This document shows positions 14,195 through 51,818 of a stretch of 64,000 bases of DNA, piece after piece (position 1 is the stretch's first letter; the number at the start of each line of letters is the position of its first letter). The notes beneath the pieces are model-generated. The model saw nothing but the letters and a program-made list of their open reading frames with translations, ran no database searches and was not told where the DNA came from. A program made the translations under genes and the position numbers. This DNA is from Ruditapes philippinarum. Lineage: Eukaryota. Where the stretch lies: positions 372,001-436,000 of the forward strand of contig NW_026853285.1 in assembly GCF_026571515.1 (NCBI RefSeq), read 5' to 3'.

Positions 14195-14340
14195 AGAAAT
14201 ATGGAAAACATTTTCACTTGACATATTTTAAAATTCTATATATTTCACTCGCCGTTACGGTTCGTGATAATATGTAAAATTTTATCATATTTCGTAAAAG
14301 TGTATTTCATAATTCACTCAAACGAAAAAATATCCTCAAA
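14195..14340 (-). mobile_element. CGAG-hairpin element terminal fragment
   Basis: TTCACTCG-CCG-TTA-CGG-TTCGTGA core and AATATCCTC end (reverse complement of the GAGGATATT start at 23332). Confidence 0.6.
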
Positions 14341-18446: not shown

Positions 18447-18700
18447 CTCGTGTCTGAGGGGTTGCCTTTACTTTGAGTCATCAGCATTGAATCCATCGTT
18501 TATCCCTGCGTGATCATAAAAGTTAGGTTAATGGGTCACAGTACTCGAGTTCATGATTCCCTTACCTGCAGCAAGTGTGGTGGTTTGACCCTTGTGGTTG
18601 CATAAAGTTTGTAACACCCGAGGATAGCCAAAATAATCTGGTTTCGGCACCATGGGACCTGAATTATGTTGGTGAGCCGTAAAACCAAATAAAGATAAGA
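18447..18700 (+). mobile_element. Degenerate SINE-like repeat (duplicate of 6560-6815)
   Basis: Paralogous position in block copy 2. Confidence 0.55.
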
Positions 18701-21700: not shown

Positions 21701-21713
21701 TTTTGTGTGTGTT

Positions 21714-21745
<32 letters not shown>
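21714..21745 (+). repeat. (GTT)n microsatellite
   Basis: Direct reading. Confidence 0.95.
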
Positions 21746-21944
21746 ATTAACAGGTTGCCATGTATTTCAGTTACGCGATTATACCAATAGCTGTCTAGAA
21801 TACCGTTTAAATTGCATGACTTACTACTTACTTTTAAGATATACTTAATATAGAGAAGAACTTAATAACGAACTTAATAGATTATTTTACGGCTTCCATC
21901 TTCTTACATTTTGTAGTTACAAACATTTTGAAAACCATGCCTTC

Positions 21945-24525
21945 TTTTTATACCCCCACCACAAAATATGGGGGGGGGGGGCTATAATGGATTCGCTTTG
22001 TCGCGTCCGTCCGTCTGTCCGTCCTTCCGTCTCCATTATCGTGTCCGCTCTATAAATCCTATACCAATTGAAGGATTTTCTTCAAACTTGGCTCAAATGT
22101 TCACCTCAACAAGGGAATGTGCAGAACCCATTTTGCCCATGTGTCAGCTCAAGGTCAAGGTCACAATTGAAGGTCAAATATCAAACAATCAAATGTTAGA
22201 CAGTATGTCGTGTCTGCTCTGTAAGTCCTACACTGATTGAAAGATTTTCTTTAAACTTGACTCAAATGTTCACCTCAACAAGGGGATGTGCAGAACTCAT
22301 GTTGCCCATGTGTCAGATCAAGGTCAAGGTCACAATTGAAGGTCAAATATCAAACAATTAAATATAAGACAGTATGTCGTGTCCGCTCTGTAAGTTCTAA
22401 ACTAATTGAAAGATTTTCTTCAATCTTGGCTCAAATGTTCACTTCAACAAGGGGATGTGCAGAACCCATGTTGCCCTTTGCCGGCTTAAGGTCAAGGTCA
22501 CACTTGAAGGTCAAAAATTGACTTAGAAAATATTCTTAAATTTTAACATGAATTTGAATATTTCTGAAACTAGAAAATATATATGAAGTGTCACAATTAA
22601 AATATGCAAGTTATGCCCCTTTTTAAGTCTTCAAATTTACATACAATCAAATATTAGACAATATGTCGTGTCCGCTCTATAAATCCTATACTAATGGAAC
22701 AATTTTCTTCAAACTTTACTCAAGTGTTCACCTTAACAATGTTATGTGCAGAACCCATGTAACCTTTGTGCCAGCTTAAGGTCAAGGTCACACTTGGAGG
22801 TCAAAAATTGACTTAGATAATGTTCTTAAATTTTTTACATGTACTTGAATATTTCTGAAACTAGCACAGGTATATGCTTGAAACTTAAAATATATATGAG
22901 GTGTCACAAGTAAGATATGCAGGTCAAGTTTCATAACTCTGTATTGCATTTTGACAAAGTTATGCCCCTTTTTAACTTTTTAAGTTTTTAAATTTGCATT
23001 CAATCAATACTAGACAATATGCTGTGGCCGCTTTATAAATTCTATACTAATGAAAGGATTTTCTTCAAACTTGACTCAAATGTTCACCCCAACTGGGGTA
23101 TGTGCAGAACCCATCTTACCCTTGTGCCATCTTAAGGTCAAGGCCACACTAGAAGGTCAAAATTGACTTAGAAAATGTTCTGAAATTTTAACATGTTCTT
23201 CAATATTTCTAAAACTAGAACAGATTATCATTTGAAACTTATACGAAGTGTCGCAAGTAAGATATGCAGGTCACGTTTCATAACTAAAAAAGTGGGGGGA
23301 TAACTTTGTATTGTATTTTGACAAAGTTATAGAGGATATTTGTTTGTTTGTGTGTAAGATGAAATAAAAATACATCTTACACAACAAGCAGACAAATTTC
23401 CTTTTTATTTTATGCTTAAAAACAAGTTAAAACGAAATTTCCATCATTTTGACGTTAATATTAAAACTGTTTCCTCCATTGAGAGCCCCATTTAGTCGGA
23501 ATTTCTCATTAAAAACAAGAAGTCTTGAGCTGAAAAATAAGTCCGCCAATCAACGTTAAATTACTGTGATATTAATTCATTTTATTAAAAAAATATGAAT
23601 GATCGCTTGTTTTAATAATAAAAACAAACAATTCTTGTCGGAGAAAAAGTCCAACCATCCATCCATATTTCTGTTACTTACTGCGAATTTATATTAGACC
23701 TGGCTTTGTAAACCATTTCTTAAAGTTGTGTATTTCATGGGAGGAAAATAATTGTGTAAGATTCGGAGGGATATAATTTGGATTTGTTAGTCATACACCT
23801 TTTTAAAAGAAAGAAAACTTATTTCAGGATTGTAACAGACAAAAAATAAGTGTTGACAGATGTGAAAACATTCAGAAAAGGAGCTAGGAAAATGGAAAAC
23901 TTGGAAGCTTGCTCAAGAACGCTGGGTTGTTTTACTTATTCTTCGAGTGATGGCTGTCAATGCTTTTCAATTTTTCATAAAGCAAACGGCAGTTATTGCT
24001 CGTAGGATACTTTAATAAAATTATGCCCAAATGTCATCAAGAGCAGTTTTGCATGGGGAAGGAATGTATTTCTCAGACTGTAAAAATGAAACAAAAAAAT
24101 TTAGAGACGAAATTTGGTGATTGGAATTTGAATGAATAAAAGTAAGTTTTCTTCTTTTTATTACTTTTGACATTTAAGTTGTCTTTTTCTTTAAACAGCC
24201 TGACATTGTCAGCAAAAATAAAATTGAGGTACCACATGGGGAAAATCTTAAAAAAGTATTTTCGTCATTGAAAAGAGTGAAATTATATTTTGATAATTTT
24301 TCACTGTGAAATTACAAAATATAATTTTCACGGATAAATCAGTAATCCACTGAAAAGCATAAAATAATAGTCCATTTTTATGTTTTTAAACTGATTTACT
24401 ATACTATGACGAAAATTATTCAATTCCATTGAATTATGATACAAGTTATGCCCCTTTTAGGCTTAGAAATGTTCTGTCAAGGACATTGGTGGTGGTATGA
24501 ATCGCATTCAGCGATAGTTCTAGTT
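21945..24525 (+). mobile_element. Non-autonomous Helentron (HINE/DINE-1-like) with internal satellite-like array
   Basis: 5' TTTTTATACCCCCACC, (GTCC)n microsatellite, three 169-bp units (22039, 22208, 22377) then longer variants, 3' GGTGGTGGTAT plus ATCGC-ATTCA-GCGAT hairpin and CTAGTT; empty T-rich site at ~11412-11420 in copy 1. Confidence 0.9.
23329..24368 (+). mobile_element. Terminal-hairpin element nested in the HINE
   Basis: Interrupts the HINE unit after GACAAAGTTAT; 5' hairpin 23333-23402, internal TATTTTATGCTT (23406-23417) matched by terminal AAGCATAAAATA (24355-24366); 3' end similar to 49135-49253. Confidence 0.8.
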
Positions 24526-25611
24526 AATTATGAAAAAAGCTGTTTGACATTAAATTTATTAATTAGACAAGAAAATAAGACGGAATCTCCTTAAAATACT
24601 AGGCGTTAAGTTGTTTTCTTACGTAATTATTTCAAACTACTGTTGACACAGCTTTGTATTTAGTAGAATGGACGCCACGAAAAAAAATTTTGATTTATTA
24701 AAAAAAGTGTTTAGATTGATTTTCCTTAACCTATTTAATTAGAGCCTAGAATGCGGGCGTTGTCTGCTGGAATTGTAATTTACTGCCTTACAAATGAACA
24801 AACATGACAGAGGATTAAAGAAATAGGAAATAGTTTGTTATAGTCAAAGTCAAAGAGTTTAAACGTACAATAGGCATGAGAAATAAATGGAGAAATATTA
24901 AACTGTGTTTGATTATTTTATTGTTATGGATTTAGAGCTACTTCGATACTTACAACATTGCGATAACAGCGATGAATGTAAATGATTTGTCATAAAAGTA
25001 GCAAAACTTAAAAAAGTATCTTGCCTTCTTCTTAACTGCGCCTTTTGACTGCTAGTCTGTTATATGCAGGAAACTCCCTTTCTAAATTTCATTTTAATTA
25101 GTACACTTATAGGGCACATGCATTCTTTAGCTTGAAGACCATATGCTAATATTCATGGAATGACACCTACGTGGCACTTTGAAGATTCCATGATATCCGC
25201 CGTTTAAACACATCTGCGATGTTTCTTAATTTAACAATTTACCATTCTATGTTAAATGTTTAACTTTGCTTTACTCGGTGCTAGCGGATGTCGTCGGTAG
25301 CTTGCACTTTCCGTTCATAAACAAGGTCAATCAAACCGACTCTTTAGCGATTTTTAGGGATTTTTTCTCTATCTTATCTTCCATATGTAATCTTGAATCA
25401 CTATTGCTAGTGACCAAAATCAAAAGTTGGTTCAGTCATATGACTAAAAAAATTAAAACAATGATATTTGCATTAAGTGGATTTATTATTAATCTTACGC
25501 ACAATGTTACATATCGTTCAATCTATGTATTACACGCTTTATCATATCACGTTTACAAGGAAAATACTCTTACGCTCAATGCAGTTTTAAATATTTTTTT
25601 ATCAATTCTCT

Positions 25612-25990
25612 ATTTTATTATATACTTATAAATTAAATATTGAGAAATATTGATGAAATAAAATGCGTAATTTAATTTTCCGTATTTTCACTGTTAAAAT
25701 TTATTTTTCACTGCAGTAAAACATATTTTCCGTATTTTCACTGGTGTCTTGCCGGATTACTTTCTTTAAAATTCGACCAGTACACATAATTTAAGGGAAA
25801 GTCTTTCAAACTGCAATTCAAAAGAGAAAAATTTGTATATAATAAACAGAAAATTTAAGTTTTTCCTATAAATACATGATTTTTTTTCATCGAGTGTTAT
25901 GAAAATAAATAGTTCATGATTGGCGGTAGCCACGAGTGAAATATGATACTTTTCATGCCAGAATATTAGCATGTTAGAATGGAAATAAAT
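25612..25990 (-). mobile_element. CGAG-hairpin element, copy-2-specific
   Basis: TTTATTATATAC (~25613) and GTATATAATAAA (~25836) inverted pair followed by a hairpin with core TGGCGGTAGCCACGAGTGAAAT (25921-25942). Confidence 0.6.
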
Positions 25991-27261
25991 AAAAACTTTT
26001 CTTGCAAATGCACGCTTAATCGTTCAAATGCGCTGGAATTAATCATTCAAGCCTAACGACCTTCGTGGTTATATCCCTGTGCATTTGAACTCGAACAGTA
26101 CATTATTCAAAATTAATGCACTTAAAGTTTATATATATATATCACCTAGATATATATTTAATGTCAAGATGTATTTATAATGATATAAATTCAGATAATT
26201 TGACAGGAGTATTCCAACTGACGGATATATGTACCATGTTGAATGATGTATCTTCCTCGGTCATTAAACATACAGAATCAAATCCGTTTAATAGTTTCAT
26301 ATTTTTTCTGAACATTGCTAAATCAATCAAAATCAGTAAGATGATCATTTTGAGATGTTTTCAGATATAAAACAGATACAAATGTATGACATTGGTGTAC
26401 GTACGTGAAAATATCTCCAGGCTAATAGTATGATAATTTATTCATCACGTGATTGTTAACTCGCTTTTTTATCACATTAAACTGTCCTGTTATAGTTCAT
26501 TTTTCAGAAATCTTTGATACTGTCTTATGATTTCATATGTCATTTTTACTTACACAAACATTTAATGTATAAATTTCTTCATGTACGTATTTTGTCACAA
26601 AACTCTAGTATACAGAAAACAAAACGGTACTTCAAAGGGGGATAAAACTAAAAAAAAAACAAAAAAACTTCTGCCTTATAAATGTTCAAACTCAAATTGT
26701 TTCAGTAATACATAGCTCTGAAACATAACTGCTGGCAGAAAATAACAACTTTTTATAAGTAAAATTTGCTTCGAATGCTGAAAGCTTTGGTGGAAACATT
26801 ACATCGGAAACGGTCTTCAACATTGCGTTTAGCATGCGAATAAGGAAACTTTAATCTGAGGTCCAAAACGTTATCCGTATAACATTGATGCCAAACATGT
26901 TCAGTGTCTCATCATAATCAATTTAAGTAAGTATGACTCTTTATCAAAGGCAGCCATTTTAACATCGTTTGTTATGAATAAAAAACTCATATTTATTTTA
27001 GGACCTATTTCACATATGTTTCTCTGTTGCCGTCAGAAGCCTCAGCTATTTATTTCATCATCAAAAATTATCTGGTTATGTTTGTCAAAACGGTTCAATG
27101 ACATGTAAATTGAATTCGAACCGCGTCACGCACCTATAACTAAGTAATGTATTACTAAGCGCTGTGCATTTAAAAACTGCGTAGCAAATAGGTGTATTCG
27201 TAAACAACTTTTATCTTAAGGGTAAAATTAAATAAAAAGGTGTTGTTTTTTTTCGTTTTTT

Positions 27262-27390
27262 TTTTCACTTAACATGATAAAATTCTATATGATTCACTCG
27301 CCGCTTCGGTTCGTGAAAATATATGAAATTTTATCATATTTCGTAAAAATGTATTTCATAGTTCACTCAAACGAAAAAAATATCCTCTAA
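27262..27390 (-). mobile_element. CGAG-hairpin element terminal fragment (duplicate)
   Basis: TTCACTCG-CCG-CTT-CGG-TTCGTGAA core, AATATCCTCTA end. Confidence 0.6.
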
Positions 27391-28397
27391 TTATTAGCAT
27401 TTACAGTGGTTGTCTTATCAGATTTAACTCTAATTGGAAAATACCTTATATAGTTAAACAACAACTTGCATAAAGTGAATTAAGCAAGATGATGACCACA
27501 GTGGTTATCATAAAACAAAAACAATTATACAGTCCATCATTTTGTTATGTTTGTTTGTAAATTTCATGCTTGTTATGACTTCTGTTCGTAATACCAAGAC
27601 ATAGGTTTTAAGTCTCTTCACATAAAAAACGTAAGGCGAATTCATCTGAATTATTTGTTTCTCCTTTGCAAACATAGTAAGAGAGCGGTCAAGATCCGAA
27701 CGCTGTTCACATTTGTATCATTTTTTTTTCATTTTTAAAACAGATCAACTATCATATTGTGACAAACATTCATTATTAACAATTTTACAACTACTGTATG
27801 ATAGTTCTGTAATACCCGTGCGTCACATACGAATTTTTGTCTTTTTTCACAACGTTGTTTTTAAAATGATCCAGCAGCAATAATCTTGTTTTTTCCAGAT
27901 ACTCTCCATGTGCACGTGATCTTTTTCGTGTGTTTTCTTTAATTTGGCTAATTAGTGAGACCATTGTTTAACTCTTGACTACACGAAACAATCAGTTAAT
28001 TCACCGGCAAATTTCGGTCAAAACAGCATGGACATAGTCTACACCAAAATGATATTGAAAGGATTATATCGGGCAGTAACACGTCATTCATTCACTGAAT
28101 TGCGCAAATGATGTCACTGCTCTGTTTCTCTGGCTTGACACGCATATGAAAATAGAGAACAAAATCTCTAAAGAACGCCCACAACGGCAAAATTGAAAAT
28201 CTGATTAAGCCTGTTCATGGTCGGGACTGGACAGTGCAGTTATCGTCCACGCCTCTAGCACCGGCTAATGCAGAATTGAATATTTAAACAAGAAAAATGT
28301 GAAAATTTGAATTTGTAAAGATTCGCAGATATTAAAACTTCGTGACATAAAAATTGCGGACTTTTGAACATTCTATCATGTTAAGCGTCCTTCTGTC

Positions 28398-28809
28398 CGG
28401 AGACCGCAGGGTATTGGTACGCGTTCTACTTTTGAGGCATGGAGGAGCACGTGACCAGTTTTCGGGACATGGAGGAGCATGTGATCTGTAAACCGTACAC
28501 GATTGGTTAATTGACCTTTTCGATAACCTGGCTAAATACCGTTTGTCGTTACTTTACGGAATTACCTCTAAGGAATTAGTCAGAATTAAACCTAATTAAG
28601 AACAAAAACCTATTACGTGATATTCCTAATTTTCTATTTAAGGTGGAAAAACTTGAATGATTTATTTGAAAATTATCATTGTTTCTTTAATATATGTATC
28701 TCAAATTTTACAAACAATAAATTGTTTACACTGAAAATCTACAAAATTAAAATATTCGTAGTGGCATCTGCCATAATAGATAGAATTATTTTCTGCGTAA
28801 ACTTGTGTG

Positions 28810-28849
<40 letters not shown>

Positions 28850-29331
28850 TTTAATTATTCATAATATGGTAGGCCTATTTAATCATTTTCTTAAAAAGAA
28901 ATAATTGTTTTATGTTCGACCTTCTCCGGTTACCAACGGTCACCAGTTTCGAAAGACCTTCTTCTATGTTGATCGATTATTGTCAACTATATTCCTGATA
29001 TAAACGTTTATTTATTCCCCTCTGCCAAAACGGTGTTGAAAATAGTTAAATGAAATATCTTTATATCATGAAAAATGTTCCCCGCAGGAAACCATTTTAC
29101 TTGTTATTGATATTGATAGCCGAGGACAGACGATCAGGCATGGGCTCTTTACTGAGGTAAACTAATTGGAAGACTTAAAACCGAAAAGTGTGTATAAACA
29201 TTCATTATCTGACATGTATTCTAATGGCAACAGTTCTTAAATGAAAAGGTAAAGACTCAAAATGAGTATGAGTATGTAAGGCAGCACCAAATGCTACAGT
29301 AATAGTGGAGTTCAAACTTCAAACTTCAGTT
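28398..29331. mobile_element. Unclassified insertion at the end of block copy 2
   Basis: Begins exactly where homology to 16229 stops; GC-rich start with direct repeat CATGGAGGAGCA(C/T)GTGA; contains a long poly(T) at 28815-28846. Confidence 0.4.
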
Positions 29332-29607
29332 CAAACTTATGTTCAAATATAACGATCAGTAAGTTCATTTAAGCAATGTTCCTTAATCAAGTAAATTTTA
29401 TACTTAGTCTAATCATTTTCTTATCAATGCTTTTGATAGCAGGCTTTATATTGCTAACTATGTTAGGTGCGTAAAATTGTAATAAAAGAGTTTAATGTAA
29501 AATTTTATCCACTAATTACGATTTAACGGCTGAAGTGAAACGATGGTAGCGAAAATCGGCAACAAAGATAAAATGGACAAGAAAGCTAATTCAAAATGTT
29601 TCCATAT
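29332..29607 (-). repeat. Inverted copy of 16238-16507
   Basis: Reverse complement matches throughout (CAAACTTATGTTCAAATATAAC...CAAAATGTTTCCATAT). Confidence 0.92.
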
Positions 29608-31219
29608 TAATTATAAATATGAAAAGTAGCATTATTATAAATTAAATACTGACATGACAAAAATGCAGAAAAACAATTTGCTCATTTCTTAGTTTTGTTC
29701 TAAAACAAATATCAATCATATACTTATATGCAACTTTATAAATTGCGTAATTACATGTAAACTGAAACATATATTTCAAAATTTTTATAAGCAATCACAA
29801 CATAATAATTTTAACAAAAGTTCAAAAACCTTTAGCTGTCAAGTACTTGAAATATCGAGGGATTATTTTTACGTTTATGGATCGGTGATTGTCTGAATTT
29901 AATAAAGATATATTATTTCTGTTGGCATATATGATCTAGTTTGCTGACACAAAGGTTTTATATTTACTCCAACGTTTACAATCAAAGCAAACAGCAGTCC
30001 CTGTGAAAGTGATAAAAGTCCAGATTTGTATACGCCGGCAATGGTTCAAGGTTATACAGTATGATTTATCTCTATCAGTCAGGCAACAGCTGAGCAATTT
30101 GTACGTCACATTCATTCATATCCGATACTTATCAATCTTATTTACAGTGCAACAGATATCTAGCTTATCCTAGCGGATTTCAGAATATGAAATAGTTTCA
30201 TATGTGTTTTTGTTAAGTACTGTCTATTTAGATTCCATGCCCTGATGCCCCCGAGACATATTTACGAATAAACTTTGACACCTCTCCTACACTCACATAG
30301 CTTGATTGAAAATGTCTGTAGAAATTATTACTTTGCCATGTTTTTCTTTGTAAATCTGATTTACCATTAGTAAACGGTCAATGGGACAAACGGTTTTTGA
30401 CAAACGACATATTCTTAAATTAATTTTGAAGAAAAATGTTGTCTTAAATATTTATAAAAACATCGTAATATAGTAATTAAGCAATATTCTAGATGTAAGT
30501 GCGTGGTATGAATCATATTGCAAATGTGATTTTCAGGTATATTAACATTCTTTTCAAATCAAAATGAATCGAGCATTTGTATGTATTTATTTGTATTTAC
30601 CACTCAAATCCTTTTTATATGCTTATATATGTATTAAGTTGTATCTGGCATAGAATATTGAAAGTACTTTATGTGATTGACGTGATAGAAAATAGAATAT
30701 CTTTTATTATGGCATTCCCTGTCAGTTTACCCGATAATTTATACTTATCTGCTCATAAATACTATTTTACTGCTCATTCATAAGCATGTTTCTGTCTTAT
30801 AAGCATGTTTCTGTGATACATTGTACAGACGCATTTTAAAGTGGCTGGCGAGATACTGTGGCCATGTAATGTCAAATTGTCGTAAAATATATTTTCTAAG
30901 TGTACTTTGTGAGCAATACCACATTACTCTAATGTCTTGATCTAAGTTTTGACGCTCGCACAAGTTTTCATGTAGATTAAAATGTATGATTTTTTGTGGA
31001 TGACCAGCACCTTAGGCTGTAGGCCAATTCTTTCATAAAGTGGATGTACCCGTCTGAATATAAACGACGTTAATCAAAATTTCAGTGGGTCTAAAACTTT
31101 ATAACAGTAACACTTCTATTAACCAACATATTTAGTATTAATGATTTGTAACAAGAAAAAGAAATTTTCCATTTAAAAATTTTCAGATCATCAATTAGCC
31201 TTAATCTAAAATGTAAGGC

Positions 31220-33545
31220 AAAATGTAAACTTTGAACAGATAAATTTATTCTATAATTCTGTAGAAGTACACAATACAAGCATTAATTCATTGCGTGTGA
31301 AGCAGTACATTAAGTGCGGATGGCATCTTCTGGATAGTGTAGTGACAATTTTCTTAGATCATTATAATAGACAACAGCGCAACAGGAGATTGAATTCAAT
31401 GACGTTTAACACACGATATAATTGTATCACAGACAATATGTTTACAGGAAGTTTGTTGTTCGAAAAAGTTAATACGTATGAAAAATATTTACTTCACAAA
31501 AATCAGTAAATATGAAAACATCAGGCAAAAAATAACCAATTCACAAGTGATTCACCTCTATATTCAACGGAAATAACTGATAAAAAATCAGTACAATTTT
31601 GATAAGTGGCACATACGCTGAAATAATCATCCACTATGAACTTTATAAAACGATGTACACATGGTTCTCAAAGTATTATTGGTCCATGAAAATAAGTTTG
31701 AAGTTACTTTTGATGAATGGCCATCTGGTGAATACAAGTTATGTTTTGTATTTGATATTTCACAAAATTACTTAGGTCTAAAATTTTATTGACAATGTAA
31801 GCGTTTTGTATAAACCTTATAATCGACGCTGGCACGTTAACTTGATATTTTTGAGTTTGCAAAGTGCACACGCGACAATCGTGACAGACACGCAACCCCT
31901 GTGACAATTGATGACTGTTTGTAAGCAATATTATTTGATGGTCTAATGCTGACAATTGAAATACCAGATTTTGTCTGAAAAGTTCAATTCATAACACTCA
32001 AAGTATATCACTACCGTGCCACTTAAAAAGGTTTGCCGAGCTAGAATTATTTTTTAATTCCATAAATTTTAACTTAATTGTAGTTGCATTTTGTTCCTAC
32101 ATTAAAGTATCATAATTAAAGTAAGGAAAAGTCAGGCCAATATGATGACTAATTGCACAACGTTAACCTATGACGTTATATTCTTTTCTATGCGTCTTTT
32201 TCCCTGCGCTCCAATGAAATTAATTGAAAATAATCGTTTTGCTAAAAAGACACAAAAAATAAAGTTTTTGTTATAGTGAATATACTATTTATCTCACAAA
32301 AAAGTGAAATTGTATGTCTTTATTCTCAGTGTGACAAACAGCATTACTACGAAAAACGTTAAACATTTTTATAATCTATATATCTAGTTCAAAAGTATTT
32401 CAAAGAAAGGAATACAATTGCAGTCCATCTTTATGATAGTTACAGAACTGAATGAGCTTGGACCCATTAGATATTTACTTATGTTTTAAATAAACACTCA
32501 TGTAAAGTGACATCATTCTCATTTTTCTACTTTCAAGATGAGCTATATTTCGAAAGATTGGCTATTATAACAGTTATTCACTAAATTGGACACCGATAAA
32601 AACTGCCTAAAATATAAAAAGCACTGTGCCACTCTTTTTACTGATAAAGTACGTAGGACATCACAACAAATGTTTATGGGTCACGTGAAAAACTGATTAT
32701 TTTTGCGATGCAAAATATACATGCACAATATAAAACAATTATGGCAAAATGTTAAGTTTTTTTTCTTTATTTTATTTTACTTTTACCTGTACACACCCGA
32801 ATTGTCATAATGCCGTTTTAATGTCTTAATGTAACAAAAACAGAATACTTAAAAGATCCTGTATGGTTTAATATCATAAATATGATGCTCAAATTAAGAT
32901 TTATCAATTTTGTAAGTTCCATAAAAGCATTATTTATAAAGAAATTACCGAATTTAACATTTAATGTAAATAAAGAGAGATAAAAAAAATATTTTCTATA
33001 AAGATTCAGTTAAATTTTTCAATAAGAAATGAATGCGTATATTTTAATGATTACAAATAATATGTACAAATATTTTACATATTCTTCGATGTTTGAAAAA
33101 TTGCTTTATAAGAATAATTATAAACATATATATTATTTCATTTAAGTGTGGTATGCAACCTCAATTACAACATACAGGATCTTAATGTTAAACATGAACT
33201 TAACAAGAACTTAAGATATTTTCTCATTTTCTATGCTTATCGTTACATATCGCTCAATCTGTGAATGATAGAGGTAACCATATAATACATACTTTAAGTC
33301 AAGATGTATTTGTGATGATGTGACTAGAAACTAAACTTGACAAGAGTATTTCACTTTGCGAATATGAGGGCTGTATTGAACGATATTTCTCCCGAAGTCA
33401 TTATTCATACAGAATCAAATCTGTTTAATAGTTTGATATTTTTTCTGAACATTGCTTAATCAATCATAATCAGAAAGATGTTCATTAGAAGAAGTTTTCA
33501 GATATGAAACAGATAAAAAGGTATGGCATTAATACATCATGTTTA
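31220..33545 (+). repeat. Older diverged paralogous pieces of the duplicated block
   Basis: 31220-31650 aligns with ~20800-21280; 33205-33545 aligns with 5313-5880, 17125-17740 and 26160-26400. Confidence 0.75.
32854..33181. mobile_element. TTAA-target MITE (Kolobok-like ends)
   Basis: TTAA..AGATCCTGTATG...CATACAGGATC|TTAA; second copy at 56453-56785 with different flanks. Confidence 0.75.
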
Positions 33546-33929
33546 TGCGGAAGAATATCTTTGAATAATTCTATTGTTAAGAACGTAGTCTGAATGAATT
33601 ATTTTTTAAACTGTACAATTATACTTCATTTAAAGAAAAGATTGATATATTTATATTATCTTATAAATTACTGACAATGTGCAATGTATGTTTAAGGTCA
33701 ACTAAAGTAATAAATAAACATCAAAAATATTTGTTTGATAAAGCATTAGTAAACAGACTTAATTAGCAAAACGTTTAATCGTCATATTCAAAGATATACT
33801 ATGCTCAAATTTGATATTCGAAATTATTGATAATTGCTGCACAGTCTCTTTGTATATATAAAATGTTTAAACATGGTTTGTCTTCACACAAAGATGACAT
33901 AGTGTGTTTATATTCTATACACTATATCC

Positions 33930-34500
33930 AGGTACAAGTTTGCGGACGGCAACGGGTACGGCAACGGCAACGCCGCCAGGACTATAACAATACTTCTTGC
34001 ATATCAGACTGGCGTTTCCGTGAGTTTTACCCATGCCGGAAATTTCATCTGGCATGGGGGTGCCAGATGAGTCGCGTGCCAAACAACAACGTCATTTTAG
34101 CGCGCTTTATGAATGAACCGCGTTAAAATGACGTCGTTTTAGAAGGGAAATATGTGCTAAGGATGACGTCATTTCGTCGTTGTTATTTAAGTTGTAAGTT
34201 CATACGCTATTGTTAGAAAATAGTTATGGATGAAATGACTTTAATTTCCATGATCATATATCATATTGAGGTAAACTATTTTAAATATGAAATAATATGG
34301 CAGAATATGCAAGAAAAAATATCTAACATATGTTTGCGGTTCGGATCGGAATATCCGTCCCTCTGGAACCCGCCCATGGGCGGTAACTCGGCAAGCCTCG
34401 TTACGCCCAATGGGCGGGTCCCCTCGGGACGGATATTCCGGTCCGAACTGCAACATATGACAGATATTATTACTCTACTTTAAAAAAAGTCGGGCTAATA
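33930..34500 (-). mobile_element. HINE-like terminal fragment split by a nested element
   Basis: (CGGCAA)n microsatellite then ACTATAACAATACT, resuming at 34471 as TACTCTACTTTAAAAAAAGTCGGGCTAATAA. Confidence 0.55.
33994..34470 (-). mobile_element. CGAG-hairpin element, best-preserved example
   Basis: TTCTTGCATAT (33994-34004) and ATATGCAAGAA (34305-34315) inverted pair, then a ~150-bp GC-rich hairpin 34318-34468 with core CTCG-GC-AA-GC-CTCG (34387-34400). Confidence 0.85.
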
Positions 34501-34943
34501 ATGACGAGTTCTAGACGACCTTCAAACACCTTCGAATTTTTATTTGATTTATCTTTGAAAAATATTCCTATCTGTAGAATGTATTAGATAAATAGAGGAA
34601 ATAATGCTTTTTCTCTGATTTAAATTATATACTAGTTCAAAGACAGTCACATTTAACCACTGGCCAATCATGTTATCCAGTAGTTTATAAGCTGGTTACA
34701 TTTAAGGATTGGATAAAGTATTTTATTCCGCAAATATATCTAATTGGTAAATAGTAATTATCTGGTGGATAGTCAGATTTTAACCATGATTAACTCTATC
34801 CACTGTTTAAAGCAGTATAGATCTATCTGTTGTCTTGATTTCACGTCAGGAAGTCATAATTTTTTACAAATATACTAGTACACAAGAACCAGCCTATTGT
34901 GTGTGTATCAGTACAATTAGTGTACATTACAAATTCCTGATAG

Positions 34944-39795: not shown

Positions 39796-42700
39796 CCTAA
39801 ATAATTAAAATCGTCCAACTTCCAAAGCTTCGTTATTATTAAAACAACGTTCATGAGGAAGTACCGGTCCTCTATTCCAAAAAAAAAAACCCAACTATTT
39901 TAGTTTTGACTGTATTCACCTCTAAGCCCAATACTCATTTTTACTGTCAAGATTAGATCAATTATTTGGACACTTCAAAAAATTGACTATTTTACTGGTG
40001 TTTGAGAAATAAGTAATAATTACAAATGTTTATAATACAATAAAGAAAAATCCTAAAATATTAACAAAAACTGCCCACTATTTTTATAACCTGAAAATTA
40101 CCGATAATTTCCAAAGGATATTTATAGATATTTTATGTGTTATATAAGTGGGTTATAGATTACTCAGGTTTTATTATAAATTTGGAAACAAATATGACAA
40201 AATGTAAAGTTATTTTAGTTTTACATGAATTTTCCATTTACTTTTGGATGGGCATAGTGTCACTTAAAATTTGGTTTAGATAAAATTATATGTATGCGTT
40301 CTATATAGATACATGTATATTAGACAATATATTTCTGCGTACATAAACGTGAGAACCGTAAATACTAACTTTCTTTACATAATTTTCTTCGCGTGATTTT
40401 CTGCACGCGGTGACGAGAGAAAGTAAGAAACTGCGACTTATATGGAATCGCATGTTACAGAGTTATTGCTTTCTTAGTAATAAAGAACTGCGATCGAAAT
40501 ATTCTAGCAAAGTTGTGATTAACAATTATGTCAAGAAGTCGGACAATTTTACAGGCACTTTTTATCAATAAACATTCTGTTTTCTAATTCCAACGTGATA
40601 TGCTAACCATTACAACTGTTGAGGTCGATTTTATCTTTTAAAACTATGTTTTGAATTAAAAATAATACCACTGTGTTCTAAGGTAAAATCATATAAACAT
40701 ACTCAGCCCTACGTAATTAAAACACCTTAAATAATACAAACAATTAAATTTAGTGTCATTTAAGACGCATTTGGCTTTCAAAAGAGCAGTTTGAGAATTG
40801 ATTAGGTTAAGAGATAACGTAGCTACATTTCATTTAGGATAGGTGATATAATCCTCTTTTAAAGATAACATTACTGTTCTTTTCTAAGACATGAATATAG
40901 CAATGCTAGGGTTATTCCCGTAAATTATGACTTTTTGTGATCGTCAAAGGCGTTTCTTTTCTTTTTTTTTACAATGTACATTGCGGTGTGGTTTCTTTTA
41001 ATTGTGATAGAAAACACGCAATATTGACATATTTGTGAAAATAAATTTGCTCCCAACATTTTCTTAATTTATTGAAAACAAAGCATTTACCTGAGATATT
41101 TCATATGCTGTTTAAATGCTCTGACTCATGAACTTGTAATTCTATTATTTGTACAAAAACACATTGTTAAGTCATAGCTATATTTGCAGTATAGTTCATA
41201 CACGTCTTTGCTAAATATACATTGAAACGTTGTAATAATACTGTATAGACGAATTGTTAAATAATAACTTTAGGTACGTGCGATATAGTTCATACAATAG
41301 TTATTTGCTGTTGTATCTTACTTTCTTATCATATCGAGTATTCATGTTGTCCACAGTCACACATTTTCTTAATTCAATACATTTACCTTTTCCACTGAAT
41401 ATCACTAAACACCCATCATTCAGGAACTTCTTCGATATAGAGTATCAGTAAAGAAGATAAATCATAATTTTTTTATTCCATTGCACTATTTCTTAAGTTT
41501 CATTCGGGCCCACGCCTGCATCGATTAAAATCAATACTAGCACTGACATTTGCAGCAAGAATTCGATTATTTGTCTCCAGTGAAGCTGTCTTTGTAAGAA
41601 CGTGTAAGGAAGTATTCATGAATCAATTTCAAAGCTTTATTTGTCCTGATACATGTACATCTCAGGTGTGTTTCATGTAAGATCGTCGATCGCTATAAAT
41701 TCAACCGCTAAAAAACTATGGGAGTCAGTCTTGCTCATTTATCTAGTATGTTGTATTTAACGGTGTTTATAATATTGAACAATAATTGAACCTGGCGTTT
41801 ATTAAGTGCAACCCGACATATGTGAGTTTTTATCAAACACAACATTTTCATTTTTCTAAAACGTATTTTGACTCTATATTTGTTCTCACCTAAACATTCT
41901 CAAGGTTTGGCGAATTAGTGATTAGTAAAGCAACTATTATTTATTCAGTAAAGTATTACACTGTATAATAAAGTTTTATCATAAAAAACAACAAAAAACA
42001 AAACATCATAGGATTGAAAATTCAAACAAAATAAATAATAAATAAAATAATAGTATGTCCAATACATTATTAAAGTACTAGTATGTCCAATTGGTTTATC
42101 AATTTAAAATGGTATAACAATACGAAAAATTGGAAAAGCATTGTTGATAAATCATATAAACGTTTATCATACCATTATCATATACTCGCCCCACTTTTGC
42201 GTCTCCGTGAAAATGTTATTACGCAACAGTTATTGTGTCGTCGTTATTTGCGTAAAGACGCTCTAAATGTACGCGTTACACTAGAAGTGCGTTATTGTTT
42301 TTCTGTAATCAATTCTTTCATTATATTCTGTTTATATAATTGTAATCTTTTTATAATGACATCATTCCGCATGATAAACAATATTAATCTAGATATTTCT
42401 AGACATCATGTGATTACAAACAGAATATGTTGTTACGTTGCTGCCAGGTGATTAAAGGTTGCCAAAAATGTATTATAACCATTTGTTAAATGAGTGATAT
42501 GTAGATAATTGAGTCGTATTAGCTGTCGGCTATGTCCGTTGAAAAACTTATTTTCTCTGAGATCAACGGGTATTTAACATGTTTAATGAACATATGTTTG
42601 GAATGTACACGATCATAATGTAGATATAGACAGGAAATGTTCGTTATTATATATAAATTGGGCTTTATACGTCAATTTGTCCATTTTATGTCAGTTAATC

Positions 42701-42985
42701 ATGAGAAGAAAAAAAAAACATAACAGGAAGAATATAATTATAATGTATATAATAAAGAGTTATAGTTTTCTTCAAATAATTGACGTCTACAAGAAAAAAA
42801 TATAAAGAGAAAATAAATTTTAAAAATTATAGAAAGATTTTTTCAAAAAAAAAGACAAAACTTGTTTCCTACGTAATATTTTTCTGTACCAGACATGTTA
42901 TCATACAGATAAGAAGAAATTCATCCAAGAAGTCAAGGATTTGTACATCAGTCTTTGAACTTTGAGGCCTAGTAATGCTGGTTCG

Positions 42986-43161
42986 GAAATATAGCCCCGA
43001 GCTCCGATTATTCCATTTGTAGAGCAATAAAAAGTCTTCTGTTAAAGTTGGTGATTTCTGAGTATTCAAACAGAAATATAGCTCAGAGCTTTGATTATTC
43101 CATTGGTAGGACAATAAAGAGTCTTCTATTAGAGATAGTAATTTCTGAGTATTAAAACAGA
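42986..43161. repeat. Two-unit 87-bp tandem repeat downstream of the GPCR
   Basis: GAAATATAGC...GAGTATT(C/A)AAACA starts at 42986 and 43073; single unit at 61322-61410. Confidence 0.9.
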
Positions 43162-43318
43162 TTCGTTGCATCTTTTCACTACCTTGAATCGTTTTGTATG
43201 AATTAAAAATACACTTTTGTGATGGTTATAAAACTCTGTGTTCTATAATATTTAACTTAGTCATGAATACAAATGCTACTGTTATTGCAAAGTGCATACT
43301 TAATGTTTGAACATAACT

Positions 43319-44758
43319 TTAACTGAAGACGCTAGAACTGTATTTTTGTAAATAAAAAGCTCTACTACAGAATAATCGCACAAGACCTTTTCTAAATCGC
43401 TGATCCATAAAACCATACAATATTGGATTAATAAGTGTGTTAATGAAATATAGTCTCCAGAAAAAGAAAAACTGAACTGTCTGTAGTTTTGTCAAAGATT
43501 TTAACACTCCTTCGGTGTTTGCAACAGTACACACTAGTCCGAGGTATAACGACATTGTAACAATAAAAACAACAGATAAGACGAGCATAATAAATGTTTT
43601 CCTGCGCCTGACACTGAGCCGATTTCTTAAACACCTCGTTTGCCACATATTCATACGCCTTGATGATTTGTGTGGATAATCTGCATCCGATTCGGAATAA
43701 AAGTTTCTTCTATGAAATTTAATTCTTCGTTTAGATAACAATTCGGCCTGTGTTTGTTTTTCAGCTGATGCCAGGCCGTCATGATTTTCAGGAATCGCTT
43801 CAAGCTGTCGCCCAGATTTTTTTAAATTCGCTACATGATCGGACAGAAGTTTTCGTCTTATCGTTGATAACCCAGCTGGAAAGCTAAATCTCCGTTTAAG
43901 TGTATAAGGAGTAAACGAGTCATCACTTCCAAGGCAATGAGTGGAAAATTGAAAACTCACTTCGTCCTTTTCTAAAGCAGTTTGACTTTCTCCATTATTT
44001 GTACATTTATTTTCTTGCCTTAGCCCAATTAGTAGATTCTTTCCAGTGCATATATTTAATATAGCAGTTGTTAACATAATAAAGAACATTGGTGTCACAA
44101 ACGCGCATAGCATGTAAACAAAAGGAACTAAATCATACGCGTAAGAGTCTGCTTTTTCACATATTCTTACTCTTATTGAACTATTTCCTTTATTGTAATC
44201 ATATGACTGGATTCCCCAGAATACTGCTGTAGGGGACGATATGAATAAAGCGAACATTACACTGGCAAAACACAATCTAGCAGATGTTCTAACAGGAATC
44301 TGCCGTAATAAAGGATAACATATTTTCCTGTATCTATCGTAAGATAACAGAAATAGAAGTAGTCCTGTCGACCAAACAGTAAATACGTTGAAAAACGACT
44401 TGGCCTTGCACAGAGCGTTGGAAGGATAACTGTACCAGTTAGTCTGGGATACAATCTCTCCCGGGAGCGTCGTTAAGGCACTAGTCAGATCAATAAATGC
44501 CATATACAGCACAAAACATCGAAAACTACAAATCTTATACCACTTGTAGTAAACTATAAGAATAAATATATTTCCAAGCGTTCCAAGCAAAACTTCCACG
44601 GCAATTAATAATGTTACTGGAAGCACAGTTATAGTCATATCCTTTGAGAGGTCTTCAGCAATAACATATTGTTTTAACATACTTTCAGATATATTATAAC
44701 TTTTAATAGAATCGTTGTATTGTTTTAGCAAGTGTTCCACTGCAGAATCCATGTTCAT
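43319..44758 (-). CDS. Intronless class A (rhodopsin-like) orphan GPCR, peptide-receptor (CCK/orexin)-like, 479 aa
   Basis: Seven hydrophobic segments; GN (TM1), MAFID (TM2), Cys atop TM3, DRY, ECL2 Cys, TM5 Pro, NPILY (NPxxY), helix 8 DQRFRKGL; N-terminal glycosylation sequons; long ICL3. Confidence 0.95.
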   Translation of the reverse strand: MNMDSAVEHLLKQYNDSIKSYNISESMLKQYVIAEDLSKDMTITVLPVTLLIAVEVLLGTLGNIFILIVYYKWYKICSFRCFVLYMAFIDLTSALTTLPGEIVSQTNWYSYPSNALCKAKSFFNVFTVWSTGLLLFLLSYDRYRKICYPLLRQIPVRTSARLCFASVMFALFISSPTAVFWGIQSYDYNKGNSSIRVRICEKADSYAYDLVPFVYMLCAFVTPMFFIMLTTAILNICTGKNLLIGLRQENKCTNNGESQTALEKDEVSFQFSTHCLGSDDSFTPYTLKRRFSFPAGLSTIRRKLLSDHVANLKKSGRQLEAIPENHDGLASAEKQTQAELLSKRRIKFHRRNFYSESDADYPHKSSRRMNMWQTRCLRNRLSVRRRKTFIMLVLSVVFIVTMSLYLGLVCTVANTEGVLKSLTKLQTVQFFFFWRLYFINTLINPILYGFMDQRFRKGLVRLFCSRAFYLQKYSSSVFS

Positions 44759-45065
44759 GCTTCGGACAGTTAATCTAATGCATACGTGTGAATAGCCGTT
44801 TTATATTGTTAAATCCATTTTATACTGTAAAATCCATTTCTGTAAGTTTAAAACAATTGTTCACCGCATTTTTCATGAGAATCATTATGTAAATGTATGT
44901 TGACAACACAGACACGTATTTACCACTTTAACCTATTTTTTCGTACACTAGTAAATTATTGTAAAGTGTAATACTCCAGTTAGATGTTGCTTTCTTTTGT
45001 ATCATACAGTACGATATGTTTTGTATATTGTTATGCAAACTAGATCAACCTATTATATGTATTAC

Positions 45066-48579: not shown

Positions 48580-49120
48580 ACTTGGTGAAATTCGATTATG
48601 CTGAATGGTTTGATGGCAGAGCTTCAGATGGAAAAGTATTAAAAAATGCAGAATATGTCGCAAATTTGAAGGAGGCCCATATAAGCTTCCACCAATGGCT
48701 CTGTTGCCAGAGTCACGCGTATCACAGGCTACGCCATTTACTAGAGTGGGTCTTGATTATCTCGGACCATTATATATAAAAGAAATTAAAAAAGAAAAAG
48801 TATGGGTGTGTCTATTTACATGTCTTGTAACTCGTGCTGTACACCTCGAAGTTGTACGAGATATGACAGCCAATAGTTTTTTGATGTGCTTAAGAAGATT
48901 TATAGCTACAATTGGAACGCCTGTGGAACTTGTAAGTGATAACGCAAAACAATTCAAACTTTCAAGTGATTTTATCAAGCAAGTATGGAAAACAGCAGTG
49001 GAAGACGTAGACGTTCAAAATTATACATCAAATATCGGCATCAAATGGACATACATCGTGGAGTTGGCCCCTTGGAACGAATGCCTTGTTGGCATTGTAA
49101 AACGTGCTTTAAGAAAACTG
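48580..49120 (+). mobile_element. BEL/Pao LTR-retrotransposon integrase fragment
   Basis: KKCRICRKFEGGPYKLPPMALLPESRV..PF..VGLDYLGP..VCLFTC..TRAVHLE..LRRFIA..SDNAKQF..APW..E.LVGIVKRALRK; upstream stops and a short deletion in the APWxGGFYERL motif. Confidence 0.93.
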
Positions 49121-49134
49121 CTATCGCTAAAACA

Positions 49135-49253
49135 AATAGCGAAAGTAGTATCGTCATTGAAAAGTGTGAAATTATATTTTGATAATTTTCTATGTGAAAT
49201 TATCAAATATAATTTTCCCGGGTAATAAGTAATCCACTGAAAAGCATGAAATA
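49135..49253 (+). mobile_element. 3' end of terminal-hairpin element family
   Basis: Closely matches 24250-24366 (TCGTCATTGAAAAG.GTGAAATTATATTTTGATAATTTT...AGTAATCCACTGAAAAGCAT.AAATA). Confidence 0.85.
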
Positions 49254-49255
49254 AA

Positions 49256-50134
49256 TAAAGGATATTTGTTAAGTTCAGTGTAAGATCGGAATATATTTCA
49301 CCGAGTGAGCACTAAAAGGTATATTTCACGAGTGGCGCAGCCACGAGTAAAATATGAACTTTTGGTGTTCTTTTTATCATATGCAAAGAAACGTTTAAAA
49401 AGACATTTTATTTTCTCCCTCACTTACGTTCGTCCGAAAATAAAACAATTATTTGCTATACTTGACAAGGAAAAACAAAGACAGTATCGAGTTAAAAGGC
49501 GGTTTACTACTTTTTATTTCTTAAAGTCGACAATATTTTCTAATAGCAATACATGAATAATAACGTATTTTATCATGTAATAAAGACAATATATATCTCC
49601 AAAGACAAATATCAATCAACATAATTATATAGATAATTGAGCCATTGGACAGTTTTGTTACAACATAAAGCAACAATCTCACTTATTTAGACCTTAAATT
49701 AACTGAACAAAAGTAATGTTACTTGTACAGTAGCAAACCTCGAATGACTATTTAGCCGCGAAATACGCACGAGAAAAACGAGAACTATTCATACCAAATA
49801 CTTTTAAATACCACAAAGCAAAAACTAGAAAGTACCGAAAACAATATTTATTAACCTAGTACTAAATGAAAAGGGCGCCCGATGATAATACAACGTGACG
49901 TCATTTACGACGTCAATTCATAAAGTTTGTTTCCAGTACTGTGAACGCTTGTATTTCACTGAAACAACGTAAAGATCTCAAATATTCAAAACAGTGAATT
50001 ATTAAATTGATAATTTCACTGTTTAAAACAAATATTCAAAACAGTGAATTATCAAATTGATTAAAACAGTGAAATTATCAGTTTTTATTTCACTGATATA
50101 CTTTCTATTATCCACCGAAAACCATGTAATAAAA
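49256..50134 (+). mobile_element. CGAG-hairpin element
   Basis: Starts TAAAGGATATTTG; core TTTCA-CGAG-TGGC-GCA-GCCA-CGAG-TAAAA (49324-49352); internal TTTTATCATATGC partly matched by terminal CCATGTAATAAAA; 3' GTGAATTAT..ATAATTTCAC palindromes. Confidence 0.8.
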
Positions 50135-51818
50135 TAATTTTATACCAGCCAGTGTATATCGCCACAATGATTCTTCTTCTTTTCATTTTCTTTCTTCCAG
50201 AAGTCAATGCTTGTTTCATTGGCGACGCCGGTGAGTGGCGTCGTCTATTATGGAATGATTTTTATTTTGGCCTATGGAAGGAGCTGTTATTATAAGCAGT
50301 TATTGTCATGTTGTGTTAATTAGTTTCATTTCGATTCGTAAAAATCAAGGAAACATATATGTTGTTATACTTGTATTTAATAACTTTATGTAAAAAGCAT
50401 ATGCATTGTGATATTATTTTCACGAAATTGCAGGCTCAGTTTAACAGCTTGTCCCTTAGATACTAAAACCCGGATTTCGAATATCGTTGTGGTCTACATT
50501 GATGCCGTATTCATTCATTCATTCCTTTATATATTTTCAAAAATTTTCTACGAAGAAGAAAGTGCACCTGCAAATGAGTATTAGGATAGGTAATGAACTG
50601 TTGTATGATTTTATCCATTTTACGTTTATTTGTTGCACAGAATGATTGTTTTTACAAAGTGTACCAGTATCCGAATGTTGAAAGCTATCCGATTTTCTGC
50701 AGTTACTGCTGTCACATGGCCATCTATTCTTTAATGAATATTTTACCATCAATTTGCATGGCTTAATAAAACTGAGTCTGCAACATTTCATAATTTTTCT
50801 GTTAAGGGTGTTCTTTTTGGCTTCAGGTTTTCTATTTTTTAAGGGGAGGTAACTCATGTTTACTAAATTATTTGTTCTTTTCTTAGGTATTACTTACTAT
50901 TTTTGTTGTATAATATTTACCAGTTGTAAGGTCATCAAAAGCATGTTAATGTGAATGTTTGGATTTTATATTTATTAATAGAAACTGGGAATTATTAATG
51001 TTATGTGCATACATATATATCTTAGTATATTGATACATGATGAGACTTATAATATTTCTGAATTTAAAGAGTTACAGTTATGTCATTATTATTAAAGGGA
51101 TGAAACTTTCATTAAAAGTTATAAATGATAATACATGTTTTGATTGAAAATGTCCTTCAACTTGGATCAAGCAATATAATTAATAAAGTCTAAAAAAATC
51201 ATATTCTAAATAGTTATTCTAATTTTTTTTCTAACATGTGCATAGTTTGAAAAGGACAGCTTCTGTCTTATCAATTTGTAATGGACGGACACCGGTCTCA
51301 ACATCCAGGTCTCCTGAGTCAACCCGACAACAGGCTTTTCATAGAGTAGATTGTTACTTGCCTGATAAATTTGTGCACTAAATTTTATATTGGATGATTT
51401 GTGCCATATGAAAACCAACATAGTACAAAAAGTAAGCTGGCGCCACATGAAAACATGAATATACAATCTACCACAAAGTGGTTCGTTTGTTGCATTTTCA
51501 TGTTTTCGCCCGGTGACCTTGATGCAAAATACAAATCAGCCTTCATAAAATTTCTTATCATAGAAAAAAAGGTTTGTTTTTTATCTGTACAAAAATATAT
51601 ATTGTACATGTATTAGCACAGTTATGTTCACTTTCAAATTGACCTGTTATAAATAATGGCATACCCAATAACTGTCTAAGCCCTTTTTAGTAAAAATAAT
51701 CATACAATAATATATAAATTGTTAATATTTTAAATAAGACTATGAGTATGTAAGGTTTTTTTCTTTTTTATTAATTAAGAATTAATTATCTGTTAATTTG
51801 AAAAAATCTAAAAGTATC

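What the first reader, a model, noticed from the sequence alone, without database searches (positions are those of the whole stretch)
33994..34470. Family of non-coding elements built on a strand-specific CGAG/CGAG hairpin plus an asymmetric inverted repeat
Seen: elements with dissimilar bodies (33994-34470, 49256-50134, 25612-25990, 14195-14340/27262-27390, probably 10505-11345; 23329-24368 has the layout but no core) share a long hairpin at one end, then an 11-13-bp repeat whose inverted partner forms the far end. The hairpin core is not a true palindrome: CGAG occurs as a DIRECT repeat around a variable mini-hairpin (CGAG-GC-TT-GC-CGAG, CGAG-TGGC-GCA-GCCA-CGAG, CGAA-CCG-nnn-CGG-CGAG). The 34.4-kb hairpin has a second such site further out (CCCTCTGG / CCCTCGGG). 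Established: CGAG opposite CGAG forms stable tandem sheared G.A pairs, whereas the complementary strand gets T.C mismatches; integron attC sites and IS200/IS605 ends are single-strand hairpins recognised strand-specifically. Inference: a conserved ssDNA recognition structure for a trans-acting tyrosine recombinase (Crypton-like) or HUH enzyme. Similar repeats may already be catalogued as non-autonomous Cryptons, but the structural constraint is the point.
Basis: partly seen in the sequence, partly recalled or inferred. Interest (0 to 1): 0.75.

Follow-up and report, generated by a model that had tools for sequence, protein, structure and literature searches.

The report
Hairpin-ended transposons with recombinase-type targets
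These are abundant, non-coding mobile elements of an animal genome that end in a long hairpin with G·A mismatches on one strand and insert without duplicating the target at a short palindromic site, a pattern that likely reflects a tyrosine recombinase moving one folded DNA strand, as bacterial integrons do.

Summary
The elements at 33994-34472, 23329-24367, 49255-50137, 25615-~25958 and the hairpins at 14340/27390 are real mobile repeats; three are shown to be high-copy. Each has a long terminal hairpin and an asymmetric inverted repeat. GA/GA loops persist across families with different stems. 10505-11345 is too garbled to judge.

New here, from 120 relatives in metagenome contigs and reads of the window's own species:
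- no target duplication;
- a palindromic target, AATA-N^A-N5-N-TATT;
- the element's own 6-bp spacer stays at the hairpin end (102 of 107), the target's at the far end (26 of 26).

Joined ends would fold into the same two boxes, 9 nt apart on one arm and 7 on the other. This fits a tyrosine recombinase exchanging one folded strand better than a Helitron2/HUH enzyme. No enzyme gene was found between such ends, so the Crypton link is inferred. Six of 117 relatives and one window copy have the hairpin interior flipped. This scan has noted the same hairpins before in coral, an alga and Euglena; I found no description of them in print.

The parts
33994..34472 (-). E34: complete high-copy non-coding element; hairpin end at 34472, far end at 33994
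   Evidence: Loose ends with unrelated flanks at 33994 (1393 reads; 228-282 contigs per run); a flank contig begins at 34473; bin depth ~930-1160 vs ~1-4 in unique bins (the first bin also holds a host repeat)
33994..34004 (+). E34 far-end repeat (11 bp), including the AAGA box on the - strand
   Evidence: sequence
34305..34315 (+). E34 inner partner of the far-end repeat, at the foot of the hairpin
   Evidence: sequence
34318..34468 (-). E34 long hairpin; GA/GA loops on the - strand at 34387-34400 (core) and 34361-34364/34423-34426
33790..33993 (+). host repeat into which E34 inserted; it resumes at 34473-34500 with a short hairpin
   Evidence: loose ends at 33790 and 33997
23329..24367 (+). 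E23: complete element with 13-bp asymmetric repeat; hairpin core deleted in this copy
   Evidence: loose end at 24367 (1479 reads); joint 23329->24369 skipping 1039 nt (45 reads, contigs in 3 runs); core in other copies
49255..50137 (+). E49: element with core 49329-49347 and outer CGAG 49302-49305; inner arm largely deleted
49142..49254 (+). far end of an E23-type copy (89% to 24253-24367) abutting the hairpin end of E49; equal to the predicted circle junction
25615..25958 (-). E25: high-copy family; far end at 25615, inner repeat 25836-25846; hairpin interior flipped, outer arm truncated (right limit approximate)
27222..27390 (-). E27: hairpin end and inner repeat of a decayed copy; core 27297-27313; far end not found
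14195..14340 (-). E14: duplicate of E27 in the repeated assembly segment; core 14248-14264

Best explanation
These are non-autonomous DNA transposons that insert without target duplication at a palindromic two-box site and are likely moved in trans by a Crypton-type tyrosine recombinase that would exchange only one strand of a folded, single-stranded circle. SHOWN: sharp ends in hundreds of copies; no TSD; target AATA-N^A-N5-N-TATT (TCTW as right box in E34's family); element spacer fixed at the hairpin end and target spacer wholly at the far end; GA/GA loops and a GNA triloop on one strand. COMPUTED: joining far end to hairpin end extends the stem through the asymmetric repeat and presents the same two boxes around a mismatched spacer, 9 nt on the joined arm and 7 nt on the partner arm. 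INFERRED: (1) one strand is copied out and circularised; (2) it folds, the GNA loop and sheared GA/GA pairs favouring that strand; (3) a recombinase binds the folded junction and the double-stranded target, cuts after AATAN and swaps that strand only; (4) replication resolves the junction, as in integron attC x attI.
For: Left box in 107 hairpin-end flanks: A 85, A 75, T 71, A 90; at least 3 of 4 matches in 77 of 107, against 12-23 in shifted controls. Right box in 26 far-end flanks: T 23, A 19, T 17, T 21 at +8..+11; at least 3 of 4 in 17 of 26, against 0-8 in shifted controls. Read consensuses in the window's own species show the box at the same offset for E23 (TAAT/TATT, 3 runs), E25 (TATT, 2 runs) and E34 (TCTT/TCTA, 4 of 4 runs). 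E34's element box is TCTR, so element and target boxes change together. Spacer ATAGAG within one mismatch at 102 of 107 hairpin ends; 0 of 26 far-end spacers resemble it and all 26 differ; two-strand exchange predicts about half the reverse. No TSD in 22 two-ended loci: mean overlap 1.09 nt vs 0.82+-0.19 shuffled. The 9/7 geometry is read in E34, E23, L040 and the main locus family, and the 7-nt arm in E25. A real head-to-tail junction exists at 49254/49255. Stems differ between families with pairing kept (7 of 7, 9 of 12, 9 of 11 changed left-arm bases) while GA/GA stays. Cryptons use a short donor motif matching the target and gain copies (PMC9977147, passages). One-strand exchange with an unpaired spacer is established for attC (PMC3458562, passages).
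Against: No recombinase or HUH gene in 213 ORFs scanned (99 window, 114 locus ORFs of 175 listed). No long copy in viral or prokaryote collections. A single-nick HUH strand transfer also gives the fixed/variable spacer pattern. The hairpin interior is flipped in 6 of 117 oriented loci and in E25. Only 18 reads show the opposite orientation at E25's best-supported joint, so E25's whole family may be flipped, which would uncouple the GA strand from the transferred strand. ViennaRNA shows little or no GA-strand advantage. Compensatory stem changes can arise by arm-to-arm conversion. 76 of the 80 listed loci come from one short-read assembly, and only 26 far ends were available. E34's empty site is inferred from a host-repeat consensus, and E23's is uncertain by 1 nt. 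E49's far flank lacks the right box.
Confidence: 0.58

Rival explanations
1. Non-autonomous Helitron2/Helentron-like or IS200/IS605-like elements: an HUH enzyme peels off one strand, circularises it and inserts it at a single nick next to a short motif.
For: The layout (repeat at one terminus, partner just inside a terminal hairpin, no TSD) is that of Helitron2 (PMC3627910, passages). A single nick explains the fixed element start, the intact target and the likeness of flank AATAN to the element's last bases. Head-to-tail junction at 49254/49255.
Against: T|T target in only 5 of 22 loci. The inner repeat is ~150 nt from the end, not 20-30. The far-end repeat is unpaired in the folds of E34 and E23. 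A second, inverted box 8 bp downstream implies a two-fold symmetric binder of double-stranded target; the boxes show no per-site complementarity (2.41 vs 2.44 shuffled), so it is not a target hairpin.
Confidence: 0.2
2. Crypton-type elements that recombine as ordinary double-stranded DNA or from an extruded cruciform; the hairpin only steers strand choice or serves priming, and repair fixes the spacer.
For: The palindromic two-box target with 6-bp spacer is a classical tyrosine-recombinase site (general knowledge). Clean Crypton excisions occur (PMC9977147). Bacterial SE elements show top-strand-only exchange (PMC9345347, passages). Flipped interiors exist in 6 of 117 loci.
Against: The boxes are 9 bp apart in the double-stranded junction but 8 in targets; only the folded form averages 8 (9/7). 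The inner repeat completes the stem only after the ends are joined. No reverse-spacer products in 26 far ends.
Confidence: 0.17
3. The ends are functional, but the GA/GA loops are a neutral inherited feature of one ancestral hairpin.
For: All locus families descend from one start motif. Two copies have the outer site converted to full pairing. The energy model shows little strand preference.
Against: GA/GA survives at two sites in families whose stems were rewritten, and in E34, which shares no sequence with them. Arm conversion that erases it occurs but is not fixed in any family seen.
Confidence: 0.05

Closest known systems
Crypton DNA transposons, animal CryptonA/V and non-autonomous derivatives (Kojima & Jurka 2011, PMC3212892: parts 1-2 of 7 and supplement 1 read; PMC13465315 and PMC9977147: passages)
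   Same: No TSD, no symmetric TIR, short terminal motif resembling the target; abundant non-autonomous copies; Cryptons are known from a mollusc.
   Different: For animal Cryptons the 2011 paper found no terminal repeats (n.d. for all 8 CryptonA rows). The passages read mention no long hairpin, asymmetric repeat, GA/GA loops, palindromic target or one-strand exchange. The enzyme is not shown here. These families may already be in Repbase/Dfam, which I could not search.
Helitron2 / Helentron HINE elements (PMC3627910, PMC7492417: passages)
   Same: Asymmetric terminal inverted repeats, terminal hairpin, no TSD, single-strand logic.
   Different: Hairpin ~150 nt rather than short; target is a two-box palindrome rather than TT; no 5' hairpin through the repeat in the two intact copies.
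Integron attC x attI recombination (PMC3458562: passages)
   Same: Folded single strand with two boxes and an unpaired central spacer, double-stranded partner, only one strand inherited (predicted here).
   Different: Bacterial; attC is formed by one local palindrome, whereas here the site would be completed only by joining the two element ends; many dispersed targets.
SE strand-biased circularising elements of Vibrio (PMC9345347: passages)
   Same: Tyrosine recombinase, 6-bp spacer, top-strand-only exchange.
   Different: In SEs the carried 6 bp come from the donor flank and attB has no inverted repeat; here the spacer is fixed and the target is palindromic.
Eulor5/Eulor6 and salmon Crypton-N1_SSa / CryptonA-N2_SSa (PMC5753468: passages)
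   Same: Short non-autonomous Cryptons recognised by conserved termini; that they carry a similar mismatched core is my recall and comes from no call.
   Different: Their sequences (Fig. 1c) were not available, so no comparison was made.

Membership tests
Crypton (non-autonomous) | mobilised by a Crypton tyrosine recombinase (autonomous partner with the same ends) | tested here: inconclusive
   No recombinase in 213 ORFs; no genome held; no long copy found. Earlier scan notes report such partners in coral; not checked by me.
Crypton (non-autonomous) | no target-site duplication | tested here: met
   22 two-ended loci, overlap at shuffled level; E23 skip of 1039 nt equals its length, +-1
Crypton (non-autonomous) | no symmetric terminal inverted repeats | tested here: met
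   the repeat partner is ~150 nt inside the other end
Crypton (non-autonomous) | short terminal motif matching the target (4-6-bp direct repeat / microhomology) | tested here: met
   far end ...AAGAA or ...AATAA against flank AATAN; first base after the cut A in 102 of 107 element starts and 22 of 26 targets
Crypton (non-autonomous) | sequence likeness to catalogued Crypton consensuses | not testable with these tools
   no Repbase or Dfam available
Helitron2 / HINE | asymmetric terminal inverted repeats, 8-15 bp | tested here: met
   11-13-bp repeats
Helitron2 / HINE | 3' repeat 20-30 bp from the end, before a short hairpin | tested here: not met
   about 70-170 nt in E23 (core deleted), E34 and the loci
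Helitron2 / HINE | 5' hairpin that includes the 5' repeat | tested here: inconclusive
   absent in E34 and E23, weak (about -3 kcal/mol) in E25 and E49
Helitron2 / HINE | insertion at TT / T-rich target | tested here: not met
   T|T in 5 of 22; palindromic two-box target instead
Helitron2 / HINE | RepHel partner | tested here: inconclusive
   none in the ORFs scanned
DDE MITE | symmetric TIRs and fixed-length TSD | tested here: not met

The most novel reading that the evidence does not exclude
Animal Crypton recombinases are eukaryotic integron-like enzymes: they transfer a single folded DNA strand, marked by GA/GA loops and completed only on circularisation, into a double-stranded AATA-N8-TATT-type site and leave resolution to replication.
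Probability: 0.5. Interest if true: 0.82.

Novelty: new variant of a known kind. Interest (0 to 1): 0.62.

Why it matters
How animal Cryptons move is open: their ends were reported as undetermined, and the excision model does not explain copy gain. This analysis gives exact ends, a cut position, a target consensus, a predicted folded substrate with 9/7 geometry and a one-strand inheritance rule, all of which can be tested with oligonucleotides and a purified enzyme. If right, single-strand tyrosine recombination, known from bacterial integrons and CTX phage, also operates in animals at hundreds of copies per family. The same ends would also let annotators tell these elements from Helitron2/HINE repeats.

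Tried and rejected
No whole genome was held, and metagenome loci could not be searched as genomes, so long copies in the same assembly could not be sought.

Core patterns found nothing in viral or prokaryote genome contigs. A start-motif scan gave 69 viral and 9 prokaryote matches; none of the 78 continues into the hairpin. A related short core gave 13 viral matches without long stems. DUF3504 in three viral records: none. Pfam on 213 ORFs: no recombinase or HUH. Rfam: no match in the window, so this is not a known RNA.

The duplicated segment 5000-16300 vs 16800-28400 was tried for empty sites but is too noisy at the relevant places. A generic scan for further GA/GA families in the 120 loci found none. 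Per-site pairing of the two target boxes is not above shuffle, so a target hairpin was rejected. TSDs with boundaries shifted up to 3 nt: no excess. Four loci (L006, L058, L060, L071) were left out of the far-end set beforehand as truncated or rearranged, and 11 of 81 outer sites could not be parsed.

Literature searches for Crypton plus hairpin, palindrome, integron or Eulor5A gave no description of these ends; Kojima 2020 (Genes Genet Syst), Goodwin 2003 and Repbase Reports were not seen. A search for sheared-GA and GNA stability gave 0 papers, so that point is recalled knowledge. Earlier-findings look-ups by sequence or place found nothing.

Full report
SETTING. The window is AT-rich animal DNA (about 31% GC), with a rhodopsin-type GPCR ORF and a retrotransposon integrase fragment. 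It is probably molluscan, an inference from its HINE-like repeats. No whole genome is held. It contains two near-duplicated segments, one partly garbled.

OBSERVATION. The three core sequences quoted are present at the stated places. Four cores with paired flanks occur in the window and none in 100 Markov resamples; two of the four are duplicates of one insertion. The 34.3-34.5-kb hairpin has the second mismatch site, and the 11-bp repeat at 33994-34004 pairs with 34305-34315. 10505-11345 cannot be judged.

MOBILE AND HIGH-COPY. Reads and contigs of four other runs of the same species label were laid on 23200-34930. Depth in the raw-read run is about 930-1160 over E34, 1630-1750 over E23 and 2390 over E25, against about 1-4 in unique bins: roughly several hundred copies each. 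Flanks become unrelated at 33994, 24367 and 25614. E34 sits inside another repeat; a loose end at 33997 and a contig starting at 34473 put its hairpin end at 34472 and suggest an insertion with no gain or loss (indirect). A joint skipping 1039 nt matches E23's length, uncertain by 1 nt. Other E23 copies carry the CGAG core that this copy lost.

RELATIVES. One metagenome scan with the E49-type core gave 120 loci of animal host DNA (76 of the 80 listed come from one assembly). They share the start ATAGAGGATATTTG with E23, E49 and E27 and form several families of about 370-790 bp. The outer site was not in the search pattern and is GA/GA in 59 of 70 parsed loci; 11 of 81 were unparsed, 2 were fully paired and 1 inverted. 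The loop begins with G in 109 of 120 (its last A was fixed by the pattern). Stems differ between families with pairing kept. Such changes can come from arm-to-arm conversion, so the informative point is that GA/GA resists it. That tandem GA and GNA loops are unusually stable in DNA is recalled knowledge (search 61 found no paper). ViennaRNA favours the GA strand by 1-2 kcal/mol in two families and the other strand by 3 in E34.

TARGET SITE. In 107 hairpin-end flanks the bases at -5..-2 are A 85, A 75, T 71, A 90 (background 0.35). In 26 far-end flanks, +1 is A in 22 and +8..+11 are T 23, A 19, T 17, T 21 (four rearranged loci left out). The target is therefore AATA-N^A-N5-N-TATT: two inverted boxes 8 bp apart with a 6-bp central spacer. 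There is no TSD (22 loci; 1.09 vs 0.82+-0.19 nt), T|T occurs in 5 of 22, and the two boxes do not co-vary per site. Flank consensuses in the window's own species show the right box at the same offset: TAAT/TATT for E23, TATT for E25, TCTT/TCTA for E34 in 4 of 4 runs. E34's own hairpin-side box is TCTR, so element and target boxes have changed together.

ONE STRAND. The six bases after the cut at the hairpin end are ATAGAG, within one mismatch, in 102 of 107 copies (anchor chosen downstream of them). All 26 far-end spacers differ from one another and none resembles ATAGAG. A recombinase exchanging both strands across unlike spacers would leave about half of the products reversed; none is seen. 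A single-nick HUH transfer gives the same pattern but does not explain the second, inverted box.

THE FOLDED JUNCTION. Joining far end to hairpin end in silico extends the stem through the asymmetric repeat. The folded junction shows the same two boxes, 9 nt apart on the joined arm and 7 on the partner arm, in E34, E23, L040 and the main locus family; the 7-nt arm is also present in E25 (read). This resembles the unpaired central spacer of attC, where only one strand is exchanged and replication resolves the junction (PMC3458562, passages). Position 49254/49255 is a natural instance: an E23-type far end directly joined to E49's start.

AGAINST. No enzyme gene lies in or between these ends in 99 window ORFs and 114 of 175 listed locus ORFs, and no long copy was found in the collections. 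The Crypton assignment therefore rests on target anatomy, on published Crypton behaviour, and on unchecked earlier notes from coral. The hairpin interior is flipped in 6 of 117 oriented loci; 4 of these also have damaged arms, which suggests later rearrangement or misassembly. E25 is flipped too, and the read joints (18 reads in the other orientation) leave open that its whole family is.

COMPARISON. Cryptons lack TIRs and TSDs and have short terminal motifs matching the target (PMC3212892, parts 1-2 and supplement 1; PMC13465315, passages). An active algal Crypton both excises cleanly and gains copies (PMC9977147, passages). No terminal repeats were found for animal Cryptons in 2011. Helitron2/HINE share the asymmetric layout but differ in hairpin length and target (PMC3627910; PMC7492417; passages). 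Vibrio SE elements are a precedent for one-strand tyrosine recombination (PMC9345347, passages). Searches showed no account of these ends. Repbase, Dfam, figures and subscription papers were not visible and may hold the families; PMC5753468 had no readable supplement.

VERDICT. A real family group that works most like a one-strand tyrosine-recombinase system (0.58; tyrosine recombinase of any mode about 0.75; HUH 0.2). Membership in Crypton is likely but not shown. New variant of a known kind; interest 0.62.

Noticed in passing
window 4989-16229 vs 16779-28397; 41208-46772 vs 59965-64000: Near-duplicated segments (83-96%), probably uncollapsed haplotypes; about 10150-13140 is noisy with inflated homopolymers. 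The GPCR ORF 43319-44800 has a copy split into two frames at 61556-63029.
   Followed up: partly
window 21918-23328 and 24368-24527: HINE/Helentron-like element with a GTCC-type microsatellite and 169-bp tandem repeats; E23 is inserted in it. E34 is likewise inserted in a repeat (33790-34500).
   Followed up: partly
window 34085-34170, 49895-49915; loci L001, L040, L042: Bodies of unrelated families carry TGACGTCA-like palindromes, and TTTCAC/GTGAAA repeats occur both near the far end and inside the hairpin; possible extra binding sites.
   Followed up: no
L121-L133: Phage contigs hold isolated CGAG/3-bp stem/triloop/CGAG mini-hairpins without long stems; 7 of 13 loops start with G. The number is near chance, but they could mark single-strand origins.
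   Followed up: partly
window 5600-5775, 17390-17638, 54605-54861: A separate family of near-perfect 250-bp foldback elements without GA/GA loops.
   Followed up: no
window 45788-46114 and 52585-52754: Two further long imperfect palindromes (MITE-like).
   Followed up: no
window 48614-49141: Retrotransposon integrase fragment (rve, E 1.4e-7) directly abutting the E23-type far end at 49142.
   Followed up: no
window 27391-27410: The flank before E27's hairpin end resembles the subterminal motif near the far end of the locus families; possibly a relic of another head-to-tail junction.
   Followed up: no
L004, L016, L050: Copies in which the outer GA/GA site is converted to full pairing, or only the inner core is inverted: arm-to-arm exchange or misassembly.
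   Followed up: partly
window 59450-59961: C-skewed 30-bp tandem array with an open Thr/Pro/Ile-rich frame.
   Followed up: no
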